From positions 1 through 34,770 of the forward strand of contig JBGTAD010000014.1 in the NCBI GenBank assembly GCA_041750055.1: 34,770 bases of DNA, in the 5' to 3' direction. Below, in pieces: positions 253 through 26,851 of the stretch; within the stretch, counting starts at the first letter, position 1; every line of letters begins with the position of its first letter. The notes under the pieces were generated by a model, which was not told where the DNA came from, searched no databases, and worked only from the letters and a program-made list of their open reading frames with translations. The translations under genes and the position numbers were made by a program. Source of the stretch: Candidatus Absconditabacterales bacterium (GTDB taxonomy: Bacteria; Patescibacteriota; Gracilibacteria; Absconditabacterales; Absconditicoccaceae).

Positions 253-327
253 GATATATTCTTTTGTTGAATAGTAGATACAACCTCACTATCAATAGGT
301 CAGATTTTTTATGGTTTTGCATATAAC

Positions 328-1136: not shown

Positions 1137-2555
1137 ATGCAACTCCACCTGTATAACACTCTCTCACGTAGCAAAGAGCTTTTCGTTCCTATTAATCCTG
1201 ATCTGGTAACGATTTATAGCTGTGGGCCGACGGTGTATTCTCGTCAGCACGTAGGGAATCTGAGAGCAGCATTCGTCGTAGATCTGCTCAAGAATGTCGT
1301 CAAGCATATCGCATGATATCCGACCAAGCATGTCATGAATATTACTGATGTCTGACATCTCACCGGAGACAACGAAGGCGACGCTGATCACGGAGAAGAT
1401 CGTATGGAAAAAGGCGCACGCAAAGAGGGGATTACAGCTCGAGATGTGGCTGCTAACATTACTCAGATATACATGGAGGATTTACATACGCTGCGTATCG
1501 ATCCTCTCGATGTCATGCCTAGAGCGACCGATCATATACCAGAGCAGATCTCCATGATCCAAGAGCTCGAATCCAAAGGCTATACCTATGCTATCGATGG
1601 AGATGGAGTCTATATGGATACATCCAAGATCAAGGATTACGGCAAACTCTTGTCCGCCAAACATCTCGCAGGACTAGAATCATGAGCAAGGATCAACGAT
1701 GCCGGTAAACGCAACCCTACGGATTTTGCACTCTGGAAATTCAACATCACGGGCAAAAAACGTGATATGGAGCGAGATAGCCCACGATGAGTAGGTTTTC
1801 CTGGGCGACATATCGAATGTAGTGCTATGAGTATGAGATATCTATGAACTCATATCGATATCCATACCTGAGGAATGGAACATATCCCTATCCACCATAC
1901 TAACGAGATCTGTCAGTCTGAGTGTAGTCACGGTCATCAGCCGCGAGTCAACGTTCGAGTACACTATCAGCGACTCATGATGAATGGCAAAAAAATAGCA
2001 AAATCTGACGGTAATTGCGCGTATCTTGACGATGAATTTACTTCCAGAGGTCTCGCCTGAGAAGATCTCAGATATTTTTTCCTCCAGGCACATTACAGAT
2101 CCTTTCAAGACTTCACTCGAGAGGGATTGGAAGCAGCGAAGAAATCCAGACAGAATTTGAAAAAACTCTTTGCTCCGTATCTCGAAGTACAAGCAGCATC
2201 ATCATACCAAGAAGATATTTCGTATCTGACAGAATTACTACTCGATGATCTCAATACGCCTCAGATGATCGCGAGACTCCGAGCAGGCGCAGATGCGCTA
2301 GATACGGCATTAGCGAGTGCCATCAGATGGTTGGATGAACATGTCTTGAAATTGTGATTGTTTGACCTCACCCCAACCCTCTCCTACGAGGAGAGGGGGA
2401 TCTCAGCTGAGATTCAAGATCTCGCTGCTCAGCGTCGACAAGCTAGACTCTCCAAAGATCGAGCCAAAGCTGACGCTCTGAGAGATGAACTCAAAGTACT
2501 AGGCTACGAGATGAATGATGGGAAAGAGGGATATGAGGTGGTGAAGATTTTTTAG
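1137..2555 (+). CDS. cysS: Cysteine--tRNA ligase
   Basis: Five track fragments in frame 3 are joined by TGA. Motifs: CGPTVY, NITDV-G(TGA)-H, SP-W-G.G.PG-W-HIECSAM (Trp positions are CGA), DIHT-G(TGA)-G..H.NE, VNV-W(CGA)-VH, KIAKSDGN (KMSKS). Stop TAG 2553-2555. ATG 1110 is a possible alternative start. Confidence 0.95.
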
Positions 2556-2575: not shown

Positions 2576-3163
2576 ATGACGACTATCATAACATTGAAAA
2601 CACAAGAGGGTATATATATATGATCTGACCTGCAGGTGTCTACAACGACATGATGAAAAACGGTTTCCACTTCTCCAACAGGAAAATTTCTTCACTTATG
2701 AGAATATTTAGTCGGAATCTCATGATGAAAAAAATATCAAAGAGCTCTTTTGACATATAGGTCAAAACTGCCTCCTCGTATTCATACAACTCATAGCGTA
2801 TATGATTTTTATTATTCGATCAAACAAATATTTGCTTGATTAGATTTTCTCCAGGAAGAAAAAGATGGTATCTCTAATTTTTGTGCATTAATTATAACAA
2901 ATAAAGATGTTTATAAACTTTATCATGATGGCGATGTTCAAATAACTGGAGATGATTTGTTGGATAATAATTTTATGACTATATGATCCGGATCTGATTA
3001 CGTAAAATGAGCTTATCATATACTAAAAGATACGAAAAAATCACCAAGAAAAATTGTTGAACAATGTATTCAAACTGCAAATTATTTTGATTTATATAGT
3101 AGTTGAGTATTTTCTATGAATGCTTCGGAATTTTTGGAGGCGAATATAGAACAAAAAACTTAA
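2576..3163 (+). CDS. HslV / proteasome beta-like Ntn-hydrolase (peptidase T1 family), orphan with no HslU nearby
   Basis: 195-aa frame-2 ORF visible only with UGA=Gly (about 13 TGA). Reads MTTIITLKTQEGIYIGSDLQ..VGISGG..ALIITNKDVY..MTIGSGSDYVKGAYHIL. This matches the HslV layout (MTTIVSV..GDGQ..GFAGG..LIITG.GDV..IAIGSGGPYA), including Thr2 as the would-be N-terminal nucleophile. Stop TAA 3161-3163. Confidence 0.7.
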
Positions 3164-3210
3164 TTTGTAATCTAAAATGCATGAATTTTAGAGCTAGAGT
3201 ATATTCTATT

Positions 3211-3289
3211 AGAGATGAGCTGAGGTCTCTGGGATACGAGATGAATGATGGGAAAGAGGGATATGAGGTGGTGAAGATTTTTTGATAAA
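3211..3289 (+). pseudogene. Displaced duplicate of the cysS 3' end (last ~25 codons)
   Basis: 3236-3283 is identical (48/48 nt) to 2506-2553. 3211-3235 is a diverged match to 2481-2505. It encodes ..RDELRSLGYEMNDGKEGYEVVKIF-G(TGA)-TAA, against RDELKVLGYEMNDGKEGYEVVKIF-TAG in the intact gene. No upstream cysS body is attached. Confidence 0.8.
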
Positions 3290-10772: not shown

Positions 10773-12011
10773 CTATGGTGTTGTATAACGTTGTTTGTTT
10801 GTGAAGCTTGTTTGTAGAGTGATGCCATAGAGTTTGAGCGAGTTGGCAGGTATTTGTCCGCGTCGATATTCTCCATACAAATTGCTCGTGAAGCGGATTG
10901 TCACATACGAACTTATTTGAGATCCGCTAGATATTCGAGAAAGACTCGGATCACTATTAGGGCTGATAGATAAAGATCGTTCGCTTACCGTTAGATCGCG
11001 TCATAGCAGACTAATCCATCCATCATTTGTGTTTGCGGGGAGACGATATCCGGTGTATGCTCATCCCATATTTTGTCACTGACAAATAAATCATTCATTC
11101 AGATCACATGCTCGTGTATCGATTTTCCCATCGTAGACCCCGCTGGATGTCGTGACGTTGAAGTCATGATTTGTACCAGCGTCAAATCCTTTGAGTCTGA
11201 GTATCTGCAAAGAATATAATCTATCGACACTGCTATTGCCAGTAATACCATCATTATCTCGGTCTCCACTACCCAGCAATTGTCTCCTGATAAATATCCT
11301 AGAATCCTTGGATGGAGAAATGAGGTACAACTCCTGAGCTCAAGATCCTCACATGAGTGCGACGGGTCAGATTCCAAGATCTTTGTCATCATCATCTCCT
11401 GCTGATCATACCAGTGAGCTATTTACTTCGTCGGCTACATCGATATGTTGTAGTGCATATTGTCCAAAAGACTGGTATTGAGGCTGTGTAAATCTTCATG
11501 GGTTGTACTGATAGCATCCTCATCATAGATTTACAGATGTATTTTTGAATGTAATACGAGGGTAGGAGGGCATGGTCTCATCGGTACCGATACTCGAGCT
11601 ACAGTAGTACAGATGATGTCATGACTGAGAATCTCCATTTATGATAAATGTATCGATACTATTGGCATTGCCATAATGAGTGAACAATCCACAAGAAGCC
11701 CCTGTACCGACATCTCGTAGTGGTAATCCTACGGTATTACAGCCTACCAATTGTCTATTAAAGTATTCTTCATAGTCGATCGAATAATCTCTCAAGAGGG
11801 TATTGATTTTTTCGAGGGTAAAGTATGATTGCTGAATGAGAGCTTGCCTAGCAGAAGAATCTGCCTTGATTGTGACCATCTGACGATACACGCCCAATAC
11901 TGTCGTCATGATCAAGAAAAAAATCGTGATAGCCGTCAACATTTCCATGAGTGTGAATCAATGTATCTGGCGACGATACATGTTGCGAAGACGACAAGAT
12001 GTGCAAACCAT
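10773..12011 (-). CDS. Type IV pilin-like protein (large pseudopilin / minor pilin) with prepilin N-terminal cleavage-methylation motif
   Basis: Reads ..MYRRQIH-G(TGA 11958-11960)|FTLMEMLTAITIFFLIMTTVLGV... This is the classic G|FTLxE plus hydrophobic helix. The frame is continuous for 412 aa to TAG 10773-10775. The start could instead be ATG 11979-11981. Confidence 0.75.
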
Positions 12012-14558: not shown

Positions 14559-16136
14559 ATGAAATTTGAATACATTCCGTTCATTCCTGTTTTGATCCGT
14601 ACTGCTAGCGTGACTTGTGTCAGTTTTTTGTGGATGATGTTGTCCTATACACTAGTATCTGCTCAATCTCCTGATACGACTGATACTTCATCACAGACGA
14701 CTCGTCCGTGTCTTGCTTGTTCTGCTACTCCTCCAGAGTTGGTCGTACGACATACCTTTGTACAGCAAATGCTATGAACTACGTCCAATGCTCGTACTAC
14801 AGCTCAGGGGTGAGGGGGCGTGGGGTTGTCGCTAGCTTGATGATTTCAGTGAGGGTTGTTTAATACTGGAGAGCCGACAGTTATCAAAGGACTACTACGT
14901 ACATTATCAGACAACATCGCCCAAAAAGCTCAGACTCTTTGAGCAACTGCTTTTTTGGTGACTACGATATCTAGCCAACTGATAGCCAAAGATGGGCCGT
15001 TGGGTTTTGCAGTGCTATTTCAATGAAGATCGGTCTTGAGAGATTTTGTCATGATACAAGATCTAGATAGCCAACTAAGTAACGAGATCTTGGATCTAGG
15101 GATTGCTGGGATGTACACCAAGACCGTACCACCAGAGGTATTACAACAATACAATGCTCTTATCCAAGAATATAAGGGTTGACAGATACCACTACGATCA
15201 CCCAATTCTACACTTTCAGCATGAGTCACATACGACAAAGTCCTCACCATGCTACGAAGACTCAATGGTAGATACAAGACCTTTGTCTCTACAGATAATA
15301 GTAACCCCTTTACGGTATCTAGGACCTATGAGAGAAACAACGGTCAGATTTTGATTGCTTTTGCGTCCGGATATGATCAATTACTCGAAAATGCTTATCA
15401 GTGTACCAGAGGAGTAGTAAACCAGTGTTCCACAGCACTCAAAAATTTTGGTGAAAGTATCAAAAAAATCTGATCCGATACAAAAGACCAAGCTAAAGAG
15501 TCTTTGAATACTATCAAAGAATCACGAAAAAGACTCAAAGTTACGTTATGATTTCGTGATAGTCAGTATATCGATGAGCAACTGAGAGAATTCAATGGAT
15601 ATAAGCAGTTCGCGACATGACGAAGCCTCAAAAACATGATACCTAGAGTCAATGTAGATATTCCTAATCCTCTATCTTCGGCAGACAAAAAGATTTTGCA
15701 TGTGGTGGATAATAAGGTGCAGACCGATCGAGTAGCCAAACAAGAGCTGGATCTCAAACAATCTCAAAGAGACGCGGCGAGAGCTCAAAGAGATCAAGAA
15801 CAAAACCAGAAAAAATCTGATAATGCTATCCAGCCAGTAGATGGATCGTTCGACGTGCGAGATCCTAGTATCGTAGCAAGATCTAGTAACGAAGCTTTTG
15901 CACAAGCTATGGCAAAGACGATGCTCTCTATCGCCAACCAGCAAGAACAAGATGCCACTCGCGCGTTGATAGCAGATCCTAGGTATACAACGATACAGAT
16001 TTGATCTGTCATACAGAGTGTTCAGTCTTCTAATAATGCTATCTGATCCAAAGATACTCCATGATCTATCGTCAGTTCATTGTGACAGTCTTGTGAATTA
16101 CAATGTGCGAACAAAGGCGGGACTTGCTGGTATTAG
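14559..16136 (+). CDS. Secreted hypothetical protein (525 aa)
   Basis: Frame 3 was verified codon by codon. Signal-like ..VTCVSFLWMMLSYTLVSAQS... GTG 14532 is an alternative start. About 20 in-frame TGA. Charged Gln/Arg/Asp coil around 15700-15830. Cys-rich C-terminus. Stop TAG 16134-16136. Confidence 0.65.
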
Positions 16137-16251: not shown

Positions 16252-16527
16252 TTATTTCTTACATTGTTTGCATATTTGTGTATGGTGACGAGTCCATTGG
16301 ACTAGAGTAGAGAGCGATATGTCGAATTGTCTTGCTACGTGTCTAGCAGAAGATCACAGGTGTTTGTATGTCTCTACGACTTGTTGTTTGAATGCTTCTG
16401 TGTACGTATCATATTTTCCTCCTAGACTAAAATATTCATTACATGGGAGGCATTTATATCTCTGCGCTCCAGAGGGGAGTTTTCCGTTTTTGCGGACTTG
16501 GCTTGTGTGACAATTGATACACTCCAT
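16252..16527 (-). CDS. IS1 InsA-like zinc-ribbon plus HTH protein (stand-alone)
   Basis: Reads MECINCHTSQVRKNGKLPSGAQRYKCLPCNEYF..ARHVARQFDISLSTLVQW... This matches the InsA pattern C..C....V.KNGK...G.QRY.C..C followed by an HTH. 91 aa. No transposase ORF follows. Confidence 0.6.
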
Positions 16528-19136: not shown

Positions 19137-19742
19137 ATGAAATCCTTCAACGTCCAAGACTTTTATTTCAAAGAAGCCAAAAAGCACGGCTATGTCGCCA
19201 GGAGTGCGTACAAACTCAAAGAAATACAAGAAAAGTTTGGGATATTGACCGCTAATACGCATAGCGTCATGGATATCTGATGCGCACCAGGATCACGGAT
19301 GCAATATACCCAAGAGACGCTAGACGAACTCAAGGTCAAACAATATCAGGTTTTGTGATGTGATTTAAAACCATCGATCGTCCAGCTGCCACATGTTCAT
19401 ACCTATGTTCAAGATGTTCAAGATCTTGACGCAGTCAAGGCGCTGATGACTCATCATCAGATAGACAAATTTGATGTCATGCTCAGTGATCTAGCGCCCA
19501 ATACTATCTGAGTCAAGCATGTTGATGCTCTCAGAGCTATGGGTATCATCGAAAAAACTCTACCTTTGTATGTCGATTTCCTCAAACCTAACGGCCGCTT
19601 TGCGATCAAGATTTTTATGTGACCAGGTTTTGATGAATTTGTCAAAGAACTCAAGACTCTCTTTGGTTCTAAGCTCATCAAAGTATTCAAGCCCAAAGCA
19701 TGCAGGCCAGATAGCAAAGAAATATATGTAATAAAAGTATAA
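19137..19742 (+). CDS. rlmE: 23S rRNA (uridine2552-2'-O)-methyltransferase RlmE/FtsJ
   Basis: Reads ..ARSAYKLKEIQEKF......VMDI-G(TGA)-CAPGS-[CGG]-MQY..LSDLAPN..G(TGA)..D...KIFMG(TGA)PGF. This is the FtsJ SAM motif (DLGAAPGGWSQ), with CGG 19296-19298 on the Trp. Confidence 0.9.
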
Positions 19743-20182
19743 TGAAATGCGAAGAATACCTTACGAAATGCTAAAGAAGAAATGAGGATTATAGCTCATC
19801 ATAAAGTTTTCGTTTCTATTCGTCATTGGCTATTCGTCATCCGTTATTTTTATTGATAACTATAGGTTTTCAAACACACCCCGTTTTGTCTCATAGTCAA
19901 CTCTAATCTGCGTATTGGGGTCTGATTTCTTTACAATTCGAGCCATTACGGTAATATCATGTCATCATAGACAACTCAATAGATGGCTCCACCAACAAAA
20001 CCTCTATGGCGGTTGCTGTGATGGAGGTATGCCTCCTTAAACTATACATTAGCCTGTCTACCATGTCCGGCGTGTATGAATATGAAGAGGGCGTCTGGTC
20101 TTTTTGTTCTCGATAGGGATAGTGTGAGAATACTATATCTATCGAGGCCTCTGGGTCTCCTAGGCGTCCTCTCAAGAGGATG

Positions 20183-20211
20183 CTAGTGGTATTTCCACTA
20201 GTGTTTTTTTT
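20183..20211 (+). terminator. Canonical intrinsic terminator on the plus strand
   Basis: CTAGTGG-tattt-CCACTAG (20183-20201) followed by TGTTTTTTTT. It lies 440 nt downstream of the rlmE stop with no credible ORF in between. Confidence 0.7.
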
Positions 20212-20233
20212 ATGTTTTCAAAATAAATGAAAT

Positions 20234-20360
20234 TATACCAAACTTCTTTCGAAATCTGATATTCCTACGCTCCGCTTGAAACATAAGTTTCTCAACGAGC
20301 TTTGCATAACTGAATCATCCAAAGAAATACTATACCAGATTTCTTTGGCGGTTCAGTATA
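20234..20360 (+). mobile_element. 127-bp MITE-like repeat, copy A
   Basis: About 92% identical (roughly 10 mismatches) to the reverse complement of 22058-22184. Own subterminal inverted repeats (TATAC..GAAATCTG / CAGATTTC..GTATA). Internal 10-bp hairpin CCAAAGAAAT/ATTTCTTTGG (20319-20348). Confidence 0.7.
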
Positions 20361-20397
20361 TCTGTTGAGCTTTGATATCTATTGATCTTAATGATTC

Positions 20398-20820
20398 TTA
20401 GTATCGTGCTTGTATCCAGGTATTTCGTAGATAGCTGCGTCGTGCTTGCTGGGTCGAAGTATAAATGATATTTCCATTGATTGATTGATCAGTTTCATCT
20501 TCTCTTTGGTCTCCTGTGCTGAGCGCTTGATCAGGAGCTTGATCCAATAGTTGTACAAAACGTTCTCACGGCAGGAGTTTGTTCGTCTCATGCGCAATAA
20601 ATTCTAATGCATAGGGTGAATTAAGAAGAGGCTTTTCTATCTGCTCCAAGAATGAGATCTCTTTTTCTAGTTGTGTGATTTGGTATTTGATCGAGTCGAT
20701 TGATATCAAGATAGCACTATAATTTACATATGTCCTGATACTGATGACCATCAAAAAAAGGTTGAGTACTAGCAACCCGTATTTGAAGAAAAAATAATTT
20801 TTGGCAGAAAGTCTCTTCAT
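20398..20820 (-). CDS. ftsB: Septum formation initiator (FtsB/DivIC family)
   Basis: Reads MKRLSAKNYFFFKYGLLVLNLFLMVISI (TM), then the coiled coil ..IKYQITQLEKEISFLEQIE.., then PYALEFIAHETNKLLP-G(TGA)-ERFV (DivIC/FtsB C-terminal signature). Stop TAA 20398-20400. Confidence 0.65.
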
Positions 20821-20868
20821 CTGTACAATATCACTAAAAATCTGACACAAATATCCTACTATATCAAA

Positions 20869-22029
20869 TTATCATGGTCGTTCAATGACTCTTTTGATAC
20901 TAGGTGATAGTTTGACTAAGATCTCGTATATTATGGTGCCTGCAGATTGCGCAATATCTTCTAGCTGCTGTGGGTGCTGAATCGTATCCAAGAGCGTAAT
21001 TGTATCACCCACATGGATAGGATGTTCGTCAGTTTCCATACTACACAGATTCATGCAAATATTGCCTCTTTGATGTATCTGATGATTATTTCGTCCAAAG
21101 ACTAATCTGTTCGATGTAGCTCTGGGAAGACCTTCATAATATCCAAAAGGTATGGTAGCTATCGTGGTTGGCTGTTCAGATTTTCGTGTTTTATTATAGC
21201 TGACTCATTCTCATGCTCAGATATGCTGTACGCTGGTGACAGTACTAGTGATACGTAGTGCTGGTTTGAGTTGAGATCATCTGGCATAGCCTGGATCCTG
21301 AGGCTGTAGGGGAGAGTAGCCGTAGGTAATCAGTCCTGGTCTTCGTGCGTTGATGATTGGGTGGTCGTGGATCTTGAGGATAGCTCAGCTTGCTCAGATA
21401 TGCCTATAGCGTACCGTGAGACCAGCATCTAGGATGATGTGATAGTATTGTGTGAATATTGCTATCTGCTCCTGCATACTGTTAGTATCGATCGTATCTG
21501 CGTCACTGAGATGAGACATCAGACCTACCAGCTGTATCTGTTGGTGTTGTTTGATCAGATCGAGAGCCTTGATGAAGTCATCATGCTGTAATCATTCTCT
21601 ATTCATCCCTGTATTGACGAATAGATGGATACGAACTTTGCGTTTGAGATGTATAAGACTATACAGTATCTGCAGTGTGGATACACTGATATGAGTCCTA
21701 CGCAGGTCTAATAGTCTATAGTTGCTAGCAGCAGTCTCTCACAGCAGCAGTATGTCTTTGGATGAGTAGTCGCGTACGATCTGATATTCTGGCAGGCTAT
21801 CGACCACGATCATCGGGACATTAGTAGTATTGATTATTTGCGCGATCTGTTTGAGTCCGTGTCCGTATGCATTAGATTTGAGTACAGGGAAGATCGTATC
21901 ATGAGGGTGTCGTTGCTGTATAGTGTGGATATTGTGGATGATGTGTTCGGCTTTGATGTAGATAGTATTGAGGCTTGCGATCGATCATGCAGACTGAGTC
22001 CTCCACCAGCGAAGTATAGCACGTATCAT
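20869..22029 (-). CDS. alr: Alanine racemase
   Basis: Reads ..FPVLKSNAYGHG (PLP-Lys motif)..HLFVNTGMNREG..GLMSHL..A-[CGA]-RPGLITYG..VSYNKT-[CGA]-K....IATIPFGYYEG..GNICMN..GTIIYEILVKL. 386 aa. Ends ..RP-G(TGA)-TAA. Confidence 0.9.
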
Positions 22030-22057
22030 AGATAGGATATCTGGTAGATAAAACATT

Positions 22058-22184
22058 TATACTGAACCACCAAAGAAATCTGGTATAGTATGTCTTTGGA
22101 TAATATAGTTATGCAAAGCTCGTTGAGAGACTTATGTTCCAAGCTGAGCGTAGGAATATCAGATTTCGAAAGAAGTTTGGTATA
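22058..22184 (-). mobile_element. 127-bp MITE-like repeat, copy B (inverted relative to copy A)
   Basis: Reverse complement aligns end to end with 20234-20360. It starts 29 nt upstream of the alr start codon. Confidence 0.7.
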
Positions 22185-22217
22185 TCACTACCGTTCTGAC
22201 TCTCCAAAATCAATGAT

Positions 22218-22250
22218 AAAAAAATCTGACCAATGTATAGTCAGATTTTT
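22218..22250. terminator. AT-only hairpin built from an inverted AAATCTGA/TCAGATTT pair
   Basis: AAAAATCTGAC (22220-22230) pairs perfectly with GTCAGATTTTT (22240-22250) around a 9-nt loop. It lies downstream of the 22326-24932 gene and upstream of copy B and alr. Confidence 0.45.
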
Positions 22251-22313
22251 GTGATATTTTTGTGATATTGTTACTGGTATGATGATTGATTATAGGTTTT
22301 GATTATAGGTTTT
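22247..22313. repeat. Two short tandem duplications: TTTTGTGATAT x2 and GATTATAGGTTTT x2
   Basis: 22247-22257 equals 22258-22268. 22288-22300 equals 22301-22313. Confidence 0.8.
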
Positions 22314-22325
22314 GATCATATATTC

Positions 22326-24932
22326 CTACTGAGATCGTTCGTTCAGGAGCGCTTCGAAAGGATCTAGAGATCATCCGTAGGTATTATAGATGATCGTGTT
22401 ACCACCGTTGCTCTTGGATGTGATAGCTCCTCTTAGAGAGTCTTGCAGGTCTCGTATCAGACCTTTTGCATATATTCATAGTCACTGCAATCTATCGGGA
22501 TCTGTAGATGTTAATTTGTCGAGTATTCTTTGTACGATGAATCTTTCTCTTGTGATATCGCCTCCATAGGATTCAAGCCTTCTCTTGAGCACATCTAAGA
22601 GTCTGTGATTGTACCCTAGTGTGATGTTGGGATCGTTTCGGATGATCTCAGTCAGCAGATATGCTATTTCACCTCTCGTGACAGATCAGTTACCACTAGG
22701 AAATCTATCCAAAGAAGCTGGATCATATCCCTTCATCTTGAGTAATTCACTCAAGACTCATCTGACTTCATTTTGAGTGATTTTGCGATGAGGATTGAAA
22801 TATTTGAGTCCTGATGATCAAATTCCAATACCCATGATATCCGCTCGACCCAGGCTATCGATTTGATTGATAAATCTGACATAGGTAGATCATGGTTCGA
22901 TATCTACGAATCTGGAAGAGATCGTATCGTTGATATATCATTGATTGAGTGAGAGAATTCTACCTACGATGATAGCAAATTCTCCACGCACGAGATGTTT
23001 GTTGGGCGCGAACCAGCTTCTTCCATTTTGAGAATATCCTATCATGATACCATTGTTGATCATCGTCGCAATATGCGAGAGATACGGACTATTAGTGATA
23101 TCACTCATGAGTGATGGTGGATTTGCTCTTTGGATGATTTGATTATATTTGTTGACCAGATCAGTGATGACGATCAGCGGACTAGCAGTTCCAGTATTAT
23201 AATATCCCGTGTAGTATCCTGTATAGTACGGTATGCTGTTATTGCCAGATATGATGATCGTAGCGCTTCTGGTATTGTTTGATGTGTTGGTGTCAGGTGT
23301 AGTACTCGTGATGGATGCAGTGTTTTGGATAGTCTGACCTGATAATCACAAGACGATTCCCGTGATGATAATCTGTCCACTGGATCCTGTTCATAGGTTG
23401 GGGAGATTGTATCTGATCAGCGATCATGATATGAGTGAAGGTATGAGAGATCCTGTCTGATACGTAAATAATGATCCTACCGTATAGTCCAGAAACACTC
23501 CCGTAGCAGCATAATTGGGTGAAGTAGCATTGTTGTAGGTAATCACAAAAGAAACCTGACTATTTGATACTGCAGTAGCTACAGATCCTGTATGAGAGAC
23601 TGAGAGATCGACATTGACAGGACCTACAGGTATAGGCGCTGTGTATACCTGTCCTGTGGCTGTAGCTCCGAATGGAGAGAAGTATCCGGTACTTTGTTGT
23701 AATGCTGGGAAGAGAAGCTGCCTCCTGGCGATATAGTTATGCATGAGAGTGAGTTCGCTAGCGTTGAGGACTCTGTTATACATCATAACGAGAGCGATAT
23801 CGCCATTGGGATGTTTTCCAAGACTGACTGGTAAGTTTGTCAGATTTATTCATGTTTGAGTATATGATCAAGATCATTTTAGAGATAATAAAACTCCATC
23901 TCTATAGATAGCCATTGATCAAGCAGCTCACATTTTTCATTGCACTGTTCGTAATCCGGCACTTGTTTGTAATTGAGGATTGAGTAAAAAGTTTGTTGTA
24001 GGATCCAGTGTGAGACGTCATCCGCTCTCAGGGTCTCAGAGAGTAAACGAAACAAATCAACTAGTATCTACTGTAGAAAATGAAAATCACGTTATTGAGC
24101 TTCATATAATTTGGTTATATCAAGTTGTATTATTATTTTTAGAGATAACAAAGAGAGTTGTCTCTGTCAATGTCGCTGAACTAGCATTGAGTCATATTCT
24201 TTGGAGTGTAGCATAATTATTTCATGAGCCGATAAAAGTAGTATACGCCCTATTGTTGTTAGACCAAATGGTGAAGTACTTTGATGAGATTCATGCAAAA
24301 AAGTGATCAAACTCATCAAGAGGATTTAAAAAATTATTCATAAAAGCAGATCTATCGTTTCGTGATCATAGATGTTGATTATTTGCCAAGCCCGTAATAT
24401 ATTGGCTATCCAACCACAACATCAATCCACTCGATACTTCAGGAGAGATAAGTCCGCCCGAATACGTGATGATAGCTGTCTGATAGGGGAGCATCGATCC
24501 AATATTTCGATACAGCTGACGCCCACTAGTTGATGTCGCCTGTGCTGGTATGATGGCGTTGGTTGCTCCTGATATCGTGATATTAGCGCTATGATATTGT
24601 AGACCACTCATGAGAAAATCTGACACGACTACTCCTGTAGCGCGATTGGCACTATTATTGTAGATATTGAGTGTATATTGGATATGCTCTACTCCGGGAC
24701 CAGGATATACGAGCTGAGCTGTTTTGCTCGAGACTTGGATATTGACCTGAGCATACGATATATTAGACAACAGCCCCAATCCCACCAATCCTACTATGAC
24801 GAATCTACCAAATATCTGTGATGCTATATGTAGGAGAGAGTCAGAGGTATGTGGACGGTTGGTATATGAGTTATGCGTGTTGCTATACGCGATATTGCGA
24901 TCTGTCATCTGTGGGTGTTGTGGGTGTATCAT
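22326..24932 (-). CDS. Large cell-surface protein (868 aa) with DUF11-like repeats, a LamG/concanavalin-like domain and C-terminal SLH-like repeats
   Basis: The whole frame was verified through about 45 TGA. N-terminal TM/signal ..FGRFVIVGLVGLGLLSNISYAQ. DUF11-like ..YTLNIYNNSANRATGVVVSDFL.. and ..VSFVITYNNATSPNYAATGVFLDY... LamG-like ..LWLDSQ...ALVMMYNRVLNASEL... SLH-like ..F.D......Y...I......G.M.GY....F.P....R.E.A... Stop TAG 22326-22328. Confidence 0.7.
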
Positions 24933-25255: not shown

Positions 25256-26851
25256 ATGCTCAACAATCTCATCAAGACTATCCTCGAGCTCAGTGATGTC
25301 CAGACGATCAAACCTAGCTTTGAACTCATCGGCATCCTGAGTCAAGCTGTCGCATCTCGTGTGCAGGCAGTGATTTTTGATGGTGAAGGCAAGAAATTGG
25401 CTATCTTAACTACGAACAACTTTCCTACTCAGCTCCAACAGATCATCGAACGCCTCGAATCTCAATGATATACCTGCAAACTGTACTACACTGATCCAGC
25501 TAGTATCGAATATGCTCTGACCCGATATGACCTCAAAGCAAAAGCAGAATCTGAACAACAAACATTGTTACAATCACAAAAAGACGCTGCCTGAGTCAAC
25601 GCCCTCGAGCTGATCAATACTACCTATGAGCAAAAAGGCAACAGAGATGAAGGTGATGTGATCGTGGATTTGGTCAGATTTAGTTTTCAGGCTGGAGCGA
25701 GCGATTTACATTTTCAGCCAGAAGAAGACGGCGTGCATATGAGAGTCAGGATCGACGGAGTACTCAAGCAGGTCTTGTTTTTTGATCATAAAGAATTCGC
25801 CAGATATCTGCAAAAGATCAAATTCATCTCAGGGATGAAAATGAATATCGACTATGTTCCCCAGGATGGAAGGTTTAGCTTCGTGGTCGAGCAACACGGT
25901 GAATCTAAGACCATCGACGTCCGTGTCAACTGTATGCCTGGTTTGCATAATGAAAGTACCGTCATGAGATATCTAGATGGTACCAAAGGTATCCAACGTT
26001 TTGAAGATATCGGGTTTTGGGGAGAGAATTATGAGACTCTCAAGACCTGACTCCAAGAAAACTTCGGGATGGTGCTCGTGACTGGTCCTACAGGTAGTGG
26101 TAAAACAACCACGCTATACAGCATGCTCAACACCCTCAATGATGGCTCTCGCAAGATCATCACGCTCGAAGATCCGATCGAGTATATGGTATCAGGGCTT
26201 CAACAATCTCAGATCAACTACACCAAAGGATATGACTATGCAATTGGGCTCAAAGCTATCCTGCGTCATGATCCAGAAATCATTCTCATCGGAGAGACTC
26301 GTGATGCAGAGACTGCTCAGATAGCTCTCAATGCTGCACTCACAGGACATCTCGTGTTCACAACACTCCATACCAATGGTGCTCTGGAGGCGATTGACCG
26401 TATCATCAATATGGGAGTCAAAGGGTATATGCTAGCCCCAGCTCTGAGTATGGTCATGGGTCAGAGATTAGTCAGGAAATTGTGTAGCTGTGCAACCCGC
26501 CAACCAGCAGATTATGCTCAGACACAGCAGATCAAAGAATGAATCAAAAAAATATTAGAAATCAGACCCTGAATACGTACAGTGGGTTGAAATCCTTTGG
26601 AGTTTGATGGATCACTCATGCATCCGGTAGGGTGTGCGGTATGTAATGGTACCGGATACAAAGGACGTATCGCAGTCGTAGAAATTCTTGCTATTTCTTC
26701 TGAGCTCAAGGTCATGATTACTGAGGGAAGATCTACCTTCGATATCTATGCCAAAGCACGTGAGTTAGGTTTTCTCACTCTCCAAGAAGATACTCTGATC
26801 AAAGTACTTGACGGACTCACAACGATCGAAGAAATGAGGAGGGTCGTGTAG
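25256..26851 (+). CDS. pilB: Type IV pilus assembly / type II secretion ATPase (PilB/GspE family)
   Basis: Four track fragments are in frame 2. Motifs: ..ASDLHF.P......R.R.DG.L.., Walker A VLVTGPTGSGKTTTLYS, ..LRHDPEIILIGETRD..TGHLVFTTLHTN.., tetracysteine C.C....C..C.GTGYKGR. Stop TAG 26849-26851. Confidence 0.9.

What the first reader, a model, noticed from the sequence alone, without database searches (positions are those of the whole stretch)
20234..22184. alr and ftsB bracketed by two inverted copies of a 127-bp MITE-like element
20234-20360 and the reverse complement of 22058-22184 align end to end, with about 10 mismatches. Three of these are clustered in one heptamer.

Each copy has:
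- its own subterminal inverted repeats (TATACC..GAAATCTGA at one end, CCAGATTTC..GTATA at the other)
- an internal 10-bp hairpin
- motif copies that face outward (the exact AAATCTGA 8-mer at one end, the one-base variant CCAGATTT at the other)
- possible TA flanks

The 1.7-kb segment between them carries two essential cell-envelope genes on the minus strand. Copy B starts 29 nt upstream of the alr ATG. Copy A lies 37 nt beyond the ftsB stop.

Several consequences are possible:
1. A composite, potentially invertible or mobilisable segment.
2. A transcript whose 5' and 3' UTRs are complementary over ~127 nt, giving long-range dsRNA that could be processed by RNase III or circularised.
3. Element-borne promoters driving alr and antisense transcription.

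No recombinase or transposase is present in the window apart from the orphan InsA-like gene 4 kb away.
Basis: seen in the sequence. Interest (0 to 1): 0.7.

Follow-up and report, generated by a model that had tools for sequence, protein, structure and literature searches.

The report
Inverted MITE-like repeats flanking alr
Two diverged copies of a 127-bp palindromic insertion element lie in opposite orientation on either side of the alanine racemase and division-protein gene pair of an uncultured, UGA-recoded bacterium. They are real, old, fixed insertions and not a mobile or invertible gene cassette, so the feature is fairly ordinary.

Summary
20234-20366 and the reverse complement of 22052-22184 match over 133 nt at 92% (8 mismatches in the 127-nt core), and there is no other copy in the window.

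The genome is Absconditabacteria/Gracilibacteria-like and reads UGA as a sense codon. Under that code the bracketed genes are alr and a weak DivIC/FtsB-like gene.

- **~73% relative (L120):** it keeps the same gene order and orientation but lacks the element. The site upstream of alr is empty and about 121-126 nt shorter. Where copy A sits, L120 has a terminator and another gene.
- **93% relative (L121):** it has copy A at the same place, with its end motif and hairpin decaying.

So alr and the ftsB-like gene are at their ancestral locus and were not brought in or inverted. The copies look like old, fixed MITE-like insertions of the ERIC/Correia kind. Copy number elsewhere is unknown: genome, metagenome, viral, phage, plasmid and protein searches found none.

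A 5'/3' RNA duplex (-202 kcal/mol) is possible only if both copies are co-transcribed, and this is untested.

The "TIR motif" AAATCTGA is not specific to the element. It is the most over-represented 8-mer in three related genomes, at about 1 per kb on both strands. That uptake-sequence-like pattern is the more interesting by-product, together with a ~250-nt conserved unknown RNA gene next to copy A.

The parts
20234..20360 (+). Copy A of the 127-bp palindromic element (TATACC...GTATA). It lies 37 nt beyond the stop of the ftsB-like gene and 24 nt after the terminator of the neighbouring RNA gene.
   Evidence: An orthologous copy sits at the same place in the 93% relative L121. It folds with z = -4.5 on the + strand and -5.5 on the - strand.
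22058..22184 (-). Copy B, in inverted orientation. It lies between the terminator hairpin of the S-layer-like gene and the alr start codon, 29 nt before the ATG at 22029.
   Evidence: It is absent from the syntenic relative L120, whose site is about 121-126 nt shorter.
20252..20259 (+). AAATCTGA inside the left inverted repeat of copy A. The mirror site at 20336-20343 is the one-base variant CCAGATTT. The same two sites in copy B are 22159-22166 and 22075-22082.
   Evidence: The word is genome-wide (41 sites against 3.9 expected), so it does not define the element.
20319..20348 (+). Internal hairpin CCAAAGAAAT-N10-ATTTCTTTGG.
   Evidence: It has one mismatch in copy B and a broken arm in L121, so it is not conserved.
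20869..22029 (-). alr, alanine racemase, read with UGA = Gly. The likely start is the ATG at 22029 (MIRAIL...).
   Evidence: Pfam Ala_racemase_N at 3.9e-44 and Ala_racemase_C at 4.5e-29. The start is conserved in L120, where the upstream ATG is out of frame.
20398..20820 (-). A 140-aa protein with one membrane helix and a coiled coil, FtsB/DivIC-like.
   Evidence: The DivIC match is only sub-threshold. Homologues were found only in two close relatives.
22220..22250 (-). Terminator-like hairpin AAAAATCTGAC-N9-GTCAGATTTTT ending the 868-aa S-layer-like gene, 36 nt outside copy B.
   Evidence: It is conserved in L120.
20174..20210 (+). Intrinsic terminator of the conserved RNA gene, 24 nt outside copy A.

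Best explanation
The two repeats are old, now immobile copies of a small non-coding palindromic insertion element. It is a MITE of the ERIC / Correia / RUP kind: 127 bp, imperfect ~29-bp terminal inverted repeats, TATA at both ends. The copies landed separately, in opposite orientation, in the two intergenic spacers that bound an ancestral operon of alr and the ftsB-like gene.

Copy B went in between the terminator (and possible promoter) of the upstream S-layer-like gene and the alr start. Copy A sits at a spot that is rearranged between lineages; a relative has a bidirectional terminator and a secreted-protein gene there.

Shown: the repeat is real, it is an insertion relative to a syntenic relative, it is fixed in a 93% relative, and the genes were neither moved nor inverted.

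Inferred: transposition as the origin. Today copy A mainly supplies stable 3' hairpins followed by a U-rich tail for the operon, taking the place of the lost terminator. Copy B lies in, or just upstream of, the alr leader. Bracketing of two cell-envelope genes is a by-product of such elements surviving only in intergenic DNA.
For: - The repeat is real, sharply bounded and unique in the window.
- The ends of each copy are inverted repeats of each other (20 of 29 positions), and each copy can fold end to end (copy B + strand, -39.6 kcal/mol, z = -5.4).
- L120 (about 70% DNA identity over the alr block by global alignment, 69% FtsB-like protein identity) has the same gene order and orientation with no trace of the element.
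- The distance from the conserved terminator hairpin to alr is 87 nt in L120 against 208 nt in the window. By junction alignment, an 11-nt stretch in L120 corresponds to 137 nt in the window.
- L121, from a different sequencing run and 93.4% identical, carries copy A at the same junction.
- L121's copy agrees with copy A, not copy B, at all 5 sites it covers where A and B differ. So the A/B split predates that strain split.
- L121's copy has lost the AAATCTGG word and one arm of the 10-bp hairpin. Together with the mismatch in copy B, this argues against selection on those features.
- L120 has a canonical terminator after the ftsB-like gene. The window does not, but the copy A transcript folds into three hairpins followed by AUUUCAUUUAUUUU.
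- Roles of MITEs as terminators, promoters and RNase targets are documented (PMC10969869, PMC2649163).
Against: - Only two copies are known. The defining dispersed multi-copy distribution could not be shown.
- A 20-mer shared by both copies is absent from 185,579 species genomes, and in JGI metagenomes it gave only two chance 20-mer hits.
- Three blocks of the element are absent from viral contigs.
- There is no blastn match in phages or plasmids.
- Peptides from the element's two open frames find nothing among 1.8 and 5.8 billion proteins.
- The source genome itself could not be searched.
- A target-site duplication cannot be separated from the shared TATA ends.
- No matching transposase was found.
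- The copy A site in L120 is not a clean empty site.
- Two copies 1.7 kb apart and none in the other 33 kb is also what a single local inverted duplication would give.
Confidence: 0.6

Rival explanations
1. Selected long-range RNA clamp. The operon of alr and the ftsB-like gene is transcribed from upstream of copy B through copy A. The two copies pair over 127 nt, as the processing stems around rRNA operons do. The duplex is cut by RNase III or protects both mRNA ends. The element may have arrived by transposition but would now be kept for this role.
For: - The predicted duplex is -202.5 kcal/mol, against -23.6 and -42.8 for the separate folds.
- Both copies are on the operon side of the flanking terminators.
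- Identity between the copies is still 93.7% although the A/B split predates a 93% strain split.
- RNase III cleavage of paired Correia repeats is known (PMC2649163, PMC10969869).
Against: - No promoter-like site was found upstream of or inside copy B on the alr strand, although this organism uses sigma-70-like promoters.
- The S-layer gene terminator lies just upstream.
- The element-free relative L120 manages without it.
- In L121 copy A has 5 private changes in 53 nt, about the rate of the neighbouring spacer (6 of 37, hand-counted). So there is no sign of constraint.
- Copy B of L121 is not available, so co-variation cannot be tested.
Confidence: 0.12
2. Local inverted duplication without transposition. 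One intergenic segment was copied in inverted orientation to the other side of the operon, for example by template switching during the rearrangement that removed the neighbouring gene. It is a lineage-specific structural repeat, not a member of a mobile family.
For: - Only two copies are known, they are 1.7 kb apart, and none were found elsewhere.
- The copy A site is rearranged relative to L120.
Against: - The unit has its own terminal inverted repeats and ends at the same base at both sites.
- Flanking sequence shares nothing.
- The insertion upstream of alr is the size of the unit itself.
- A template-switch copy would not be expected to be bounded by an internal palindrome.
Confidence: 0.15
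3. Composite transposon or invertible (phase-variable) cassette. The two copies mobilise or flip alr and the ftsB-like gene.
For: Two inverted copies bracket the genes. Gene capture by paired insertion elements is a known route to composite transposons (PMC10969869).
Against: - Gene order and orientation are the same in the element-free relative L120.
- The copy A junction is the same in L121.
- The genes are single-copy housekeeping genes at the ancestral locus.
- There is no recombinase or transposase nearby. InsA is orphan and 4 kb away.
- The copies are 6-8% diverged, so there has been no recent exchange.
Confidence: 0.03
4. Chance similarity or an assembly artefact.
For: None beyond the fact that the window is a metagenome-assembled contig.
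Against: - E = 1e-51.
- The copies differ at 8-10 positions, so this is not a collapsed or chimeric repeat.
- The junction between the ftsB-like gene and copy A is reproduced in an independent assembly.
Confidence: 0.01

Closest known systems
Correia repeat enclosed elements (CREE/NEMIS) of Neisseria
   Same: - About 100-155 bp and non-coding.
- Terminal inverted repeats with TA(TA) at the ends.
- Sit in intergenic spacers next to genes.
- The transcript folds into a long hairpin.
- The ends can create -10-like boxes: here GTATA plus the flanking AAT gives TATAAA 20 nt before the alr ATG.
- Known to be cut by RNase III (PMC2649163).
   Different: - No sequence similarity.
- Hundreds of copies per Neisseria genome, against two known here.
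- No IHF site was examined.
- The TA duplication is not demonstrable here.
- The host is a UGA-recoded CPR bacterium.
ERIC (enterobacterial repetitive intergenic consensus)
   Same: - An imperfect palindrome of about the same length (127 bp is from my own knowledge).
- Located in transcribed intergenic regions, often 3' of genes.
- Present or absent between related genomes.
- Can alter mRNA stability (PMC10969869).
   Different: - Unrelated sequence and host.
- ERIC is a proven multi-copy family (30-700 copies; PMC10969869).
- No family has been shown here.
RUP and other IS630-derived MITEs with TA targets
   Same: Size, terminal inverted repeats, and possible TA flanks.
   Different: - No IS630-like transposase with matching ends was found in the window or in the relatives.
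- The target duplication is unresolved.
Composite transposons and MITE-flanked mobilisable units
   Same: Two copies of a small element bracket cargo genes.
   Different: - The cargo here is at its ancestral locus and in its ancestral orientation.
- No duplication flanks the whole unit.
- The cargo is housekeeping genes.
RNase III processing stems flanking rRNA operons
   Same: Long complementary segments 5' and 3' of a transcription unit (a potential duplex of -202 kcal/mol).
   Different: - Co-transcription is not shown.
- The feature is absent from a close relative.
- It flanks an mRNA, not a stable RNA.
DNA uptake sequences (Neisseria DUS, Pasteurellaceae USS), for the AAATCTGA word only
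   Same: - A short exact word about 8-10 times over-represented, at about 1.1-1.4 per kb.
- Equal on both strands, in all reading frames and in intergenic DNA.
- Frequent as inverted pairs that form terminators.
- An AT-rich flank.
- Shared by related genomes.
   Different: - No uptake experiment and no receptor identified.
- The lineage is not known to be transformable.
- Only 49 kb of sequence from three genomes was examined.

Membership tests
Bacterial MITE (miniature inverted-repeat transposable element) | Small (under ~500 bp) and non-coding | tested here: met
   The unit is 127 bp. Differences between the copies are mostly non-synonymous in the open frame, and no protein matches were found.
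Bacterial MITE (miniature inverted-repeat transposable element) | Terminal inverted repeats | tested here: met
   TATAC/GTATA termini are perfect, and 20 of 29 terminal positions match between the two ends (read). An end-to-end fold is predicted.
Bacterial MITE (miniature inverted-repeat transposable element) | Target-site duplication | tested here: inconclusive
   Both copies carry TA/TATA at both ends, so a duplication cannot be separated from the termini. L120's empty site contains TATAA but is too diverged to decide.
Bacterial MITE (miniature inverted-repeat transposable element) | Presence/absence polymorphism at an otherwise conserved site | tested here: met
   Copy B is absent from syntenic L120, with a size difference of about 121-126 nt. 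Copy A is present in L121.
Bacterial MITE (miniature inverted-repeat transposable element) | Several dispersed copies in the genome | tested here: inconclusive
   There are two copies in 34.8 kb. None were found in public genome, metagenome, viral, phage, plasmid or protein collections. The source genome outside the window was not available.
Bacterial MITE (miniature inverted-repeat transposable element) | Parent insertion sequence or transposase with matching ends | tested here: not met
   The only transposase-like gene is an orphan InsA-like Zn-ribbon/HTH protein at 16255-16527 with no InsB. The element has no similarity to that region.
Composite transposon / mobilisable bracketed unit | Cargo at a new locus relative to relatives | tested here: not met
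   Flanking genes and order are the same in element-free L120.
Invertible DNA segment | Both orientations observed, and a site-specific recombinase nearby | tested here: not met
   Orientation is the same in the window, L120 and L121. No recombinase is in the window. Read-level heterogeneity is not testable with these tools.
Known RNA family (Rfam) | Match to a covariance model | tested here: not met
   No family reached its gathering score in the window. Only chance-level matches appeared at E up to 5 in 19600-22500.
DNA uptake sequence (DUS/USS), for AAATCTGA | Strong over-representation at about 1 per kb, without strand bias, in genes and between them | tested here: met
   Counts are 41 against 3.9 expected, 7 against 0.86 and 11 against 1.2. 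Strands are 21 + and 20 -, and 26 of 41 sites lie in genes in all frames. It is the top 8-mer in an unbiased scan.
DNA uptake sequence (DUS/USS), for AAATCTGA | Preferential uptake of DNA carrying the word; a cognate receptor | not testable with these tools
   The only context is a T2SSE/PilB-type ATPase and a pilin-like protein in the window.

The most novel reading that the evidence does not exclude
The 8-mer taken for the element's terminal motif, AAATCTGA (extended form: A-rich 12 nt, AAATCTGA, then a pyrimidine), may be a selected genome-wide signal of this UGA-recoded CPR lineage, with the hallmarks of a DNA uptake sequence. The 127-bp element would then be a small mobile carrier of an inverted pair of it. 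That would make it the first uptake-signal-like word described in the Candidate Phyla Radiation, whose members are thought to depend on scavenged DNA. A second unexcluded reading is that the two copies clamp the alr mRNA ends into a 127-bp RNase III substrate.
Probability: 0.2. Interest if true: 0.7.

Novelty: new member of a known kind. Interest (0 to 1): 0.3.

Why it matters
As it stands, the finding adds a MITE-like element to a phylum where the paper library I searched held no relevant report. It also shows how such an element reshapes the 5' and 3' boundaries of an essential cell-wall operon in a tiny genome, which is of modest interest.

It would matter more in two cases:
- **A functional RNA duplex.** If the two copies pair in one mRNA, that would be an rRNA-style processing stem around a protein-coding operon.
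- **An uptake or recognition signal.** If the AAATCTGA word shared by the element and the whole genome is a DNA-uptake or other recognition signal, competence and DNA scavenging in CPR bacteria would become directly testable.

Tried and rejected
- **Table 11 ORFs.** The genes came out fragmented. Reading UGA as sense (code 4 or 25) fixed this.
- **Rfam and tRNA searches.** Nothing was found for the element or its surroundings.
- **20-mer scan of genome contigs.** No hit.
- **20-mer scan of metagenome contigs.** Two hits, both bare 20-mer coincidences.
- **Inverted-motif hairpin scan of genome contigs.** Its only use was turning up L085.
- **Distant Alr relatives at 47% identity, L003-L005.** Synteny differs, there is no repeat and no motif enrichment, so they are uninformative for the element.
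- **Exact look-ups of table-11 ORF products near the element, and of the window's own FtsB-like protein.** None are on record.
- **Viral-contig scans with three element blocks, and phages and plasmids by blastn.** Nothing.
- **Peptides from the element's two open frames.** Nothing.
- **Element as a gene fragment.** Rejected. The A/B differences are mostly non-synonymous, and 42 open codons is not unusual at 38% GC.
- **Link to the InsA-like gene.** Rejected. There is no InsB and no shared ends.
- **Literature.** I found no report of this motif, of uptake sequences, or of MITEs in Absconditabacteria, Gracilibacteria or Patescibacteria.
Full report
**1.

The + strand at 20234-20366 and the reverse complement of 22052-22184 match without gaps over 133 nt at 92%. 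blastn gives E = 1e-51, and nothing else in the 34.8-kb window matches the unit beyond 27 nt.

Similarity begins exactly at TATACC (20234 / 22184) and ends at GTATA (20360 / 22058). The flanks share nothing except TGTT two bases further on.

The 127-nt core has 8 mismatches, three of them within 20312-20316.

Each copy has inverted ends (20 of 29 positions; the perfect parts are TATAC and GAAATCTG). Each also has an inner 10-bp hairpin, which is perfect only in copy A. All four strands fold better than shuffled sequence, with z from -2.1 to -5.5.

**2. What organism and which genes**

With the standard bacterial code the region has only short ORFs. Reading UGA as a sense codon raises the summed length of ORFs of at least 100 aa from 4,490 to 21,836 residues.

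The closest alanine racemases are from Absconditabacteria, SR1 and Gracilibacteria, at no more than about 47% identity. So this is a code-25-type CPR genome with 38% GC.

Gene content around the repeats:
- Between the repeats, on the minus strand, lies alr (Pfam N and C domains at 4e-44 and 5e-29).
- Next to it is a 140-aa protein with one membrane helix and a coiled coil. It matches DivIC/FtsB only below threshold (E = 0.016).
- Outside copy B is the terminator hairpin (22250-22220) of an 868-aa DUF11/SLH surface protein.
- Outside copy A is a + strand terminator (20174-20210).
- The InsA-like gene 4 kb away has a Zn-ribbon and an HTH domain but no InsB partner.

**3. Relatives decide the history**

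A search with the fast-evolving FtsB-like protein found only three sequences: the window's own, a 69% homologue and a cluster mate.

*L120.* The 69% homologue lies on a 6.6-kb JGI contig, L120.
- It is collinear with the window: the 3' end of the S-layer gene, the terminator hairpin, alr, the ftsB-like gene, a conserved non-coding block and rlmE. All are in the same relative orientations, at 68-82% DNA identity by global alignment and 73-82% for the main BLAST blocks.
- It has no trace of the element and no long inverted repeat.
- From the hairpin to the aligned alr sequence is 87 nt in L120 against 208 nt in the window.
- At the junction, L120 reads ...TCAGACCTATAACAAC|AATGAATAC... The window reads ...TCAGAACGGTAGTGA[127-nt element]AATGTTTTATC....
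- So L120 has an empty site of the right size.
- The alr start conserved in both is the ATG at 22029. The upstream ATG at 22056 is out of frame in L120.
- On the other side, L120 has a canonical bidirectional terminator and a ~330-aa secreted-protein gene between the ftsB-like gene and the conserved block. The window has neither and has copy A there.

*L121.* The cluster mate lies on a Logan contig from another run, L121.
- It is 93.4% identical to the window and runs 53 nt into copy A at the same junction.
- At the five positions it covers where copies A and B differ, it always agrees with A.
- Its five private changes destroy the AAATCTGG word and one arm of the hairpin.

**4. What follows from this**

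- The genes were not imported or flipped by the repeats. The locus and its orientation are ancestral, which removes the composite-transposon and inversion readings as history.
- The unit behaves as an insertion with its own palindromic ends. That is the anatomy of bacterial MITEs such as ERIC, Correia and RUP (PMC10969869, PMC2229807).
- The insertions are old. The A/B divergence predates a 93% strain split, and copy A is fixed.

**5. What could not be shown**

I could not show that this is a multi-copy family.
- A 20-mer shared by both copies is absent from one genome per species of GTDB.
- It occurs only as two unrelated 20-mer coincidences in JGI metagenomes.
- Three blocks of the element are absent from viral contigs.
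- blastn finds nothing in phages or plasmids.
- Peptides from the two open frames of the element find no called ORF among billions of proteins.
A Logan contig identical to part of the window shows only that the strain is present in SRR28170465.
- The TA flanks cannot be distinguished from the TATA termini.

**6. How it most likely works now (inferred)**

In the window the ftsB-like gene has lost the terminator that L120 has. The transcript of copy A on the operon strand folds into three hairpins, the last followed by AUUUCAUUUAUUUU. Copy A therefore probably provides the 3' end or 3' protection of the operon.

Copy B separates alr from the conserved TTGAYT box next to the upstream terminator. 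No sigma-70-like promoter of at least 9 of 12 matches is found on the alr strand between 22250 and 22056. The neighbouring RNA gene shows that this organism does use TTTACA-16-TAATAT-type promoters.

The junction of copy B with its flank reads TATAAA, 20 nt before the ATG. As with Correia ends (PMC2649163), this might serve as a -10 box.

The RNA consequence depends on where transcription starts:
- If it starts upstream of copy B, the leader and the trailer could form a -202.5 kcal/mol duplex.
- If it starts at the junction, no duplex forms.
- This cannot be decided without transcript data.

**7. The motif is not the element's own**

AAATCTGA occurs 41 times in the window against 3.9 expected, and it is the top 8-mer in an unbiased scan.
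- The sites are 21 on the + strand and 20 on the - strand.
- 26 lie in genes, in all frames and both orientations.
- 15 lie in the ~15% of sequence that is intergenic.
- There are six convergent pairs within 100 nt, against about 1.2 expected (expectation by hand). They include two terminator hairpins.
- The core is preceded by a 12-nt A-rich tract and followed by a pyrimidine.
- The same enrichment is seen in L120 (7 against 0.86) and in L085, another UGA-recoded genome (11 against 1.2).
- It is not seen in the 47% relatives.
- Several sites are positionally conserved between the window and L120, where only 6.7% of 8-mers are.

This is the pattern of DNA uptake sequences. I found no report of it. 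The window also encodes a PilB-type ATPase and a pilin-like protein. This is a lead, not a demonstration.

**8. Verdict**

The repeat pair is genuine and is best read as two fixed MITE-like insertions: a new member of a known kind, in an unusual host. Interest is modest for the pair itself. The by-products, a genome-wide motif and an unknown conserved RNA, deserve their own follow-up.

Noticed in passing
whole window (41 sites, e.g. 22222-22229 / 22241-22248, 18962 / 18992, 16895 / 16984); L120; L085: AAATCTGA (A-rich 12-nt flank, core, then C/T) is the most over-represented 8-mer: 41 against 3.9 expected in the window, 7 against 0.86 in L120, and 11 against 1.2 in L085. It shows no strand bias, occurs in all reading frames, is enriched between genes, often forms convergent pairs that make terminator hairpins, and is partly conserved in position. 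The pattern resembles a DNA uptake sequence.
   Followed up: partly
window 19925-20212 (+), transcript probably ~19965-20212; L120 3494-3780 (-): This stretch is about 97% identical between genomes whose neighbouring genes are 68-74% identical. A TTTACA-16-TAATAT promoter has conserved hexamers and a variable spacer. The stretch is strongly structured, stem substitutions keep pairing only on the + strand, and it ends in an intrinsic terminator. There is no Rfam, tRNA or tmRNA match. It is probably an undescribed ~250-nt RNA gene.
   Followed up: partly
whole window: UGA is a sense codon (code 25 or 4). ORFs of at least 100 aa sum to 4,490 residues with table 11 and 21,836 with UGA read through. 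No Shine-Dalgarno-like sequence is seen upstream of 21 start codons.
   Followed up: partly
window 2461-2553 and 3191-3283: The last 93 nt of cysS are repeated 730 nt downstream (81% overall; the last ~50 nt are identical, and the old terminator follows the second copy). The two copies bracket a 195-aa gene with no Pfam match (2576-3163). It looks like a gene-sized insertion that brought a replacement 3' end for cysS.
   Followed up: partly
window 267-323 and 1066-1122: A 57-nt direct repeat (81%) lies just upstream of two start codons and brackets a DUF218 gene (328-1056) in front of cysS. This is a second gene-sized segment flanked by a duplicated gene boundary.
   Followed up: partly
L120 2312-3493: The relative carries a bidirectional terminator (2341-2362) and a ~330-aa secreted protein gene with no Pfam match, exactly where the window has copy A. 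The window has no homologue of that gene.
   Followed up: partly
window 16255-16527 (-): An orphan InsA-like protein (Zn-ribbon plus HTH_Tnp_1) with no InsB or DDE partner. The ORF that overlaps on the other strand (14559-16136) looks like the real gene there.
   Followed up: partly
window 19816-19848; L120 3865-3960: The spacer between rlmE and the RNA gene holds a different short tandem repeat in each genome: a 14-nt unit in the window and a GGTGAAT-type heptamer in L120. It is a fast-evolving minisatellite.
   Followed up: no
window 22245-22269 and 22286-22320: Two short perfect or near-perfect tandem repeats (11 nt x 2.3 and 13 nt x 2.7) lie between the stop of the S-layer-like gene and its terminator hairpin.
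   Followed up: no
window 25256-26851 (+) and 10773-11981 (-): A T2SSE/PilB-type ATPase (3e-101) and a large pilin-like protein with an N-terminal methylation motif. Peptidoglycan genes (a Mur ligase, glutamate racemase, alr) cluster in the same 15 kb.
   Followed up: partly
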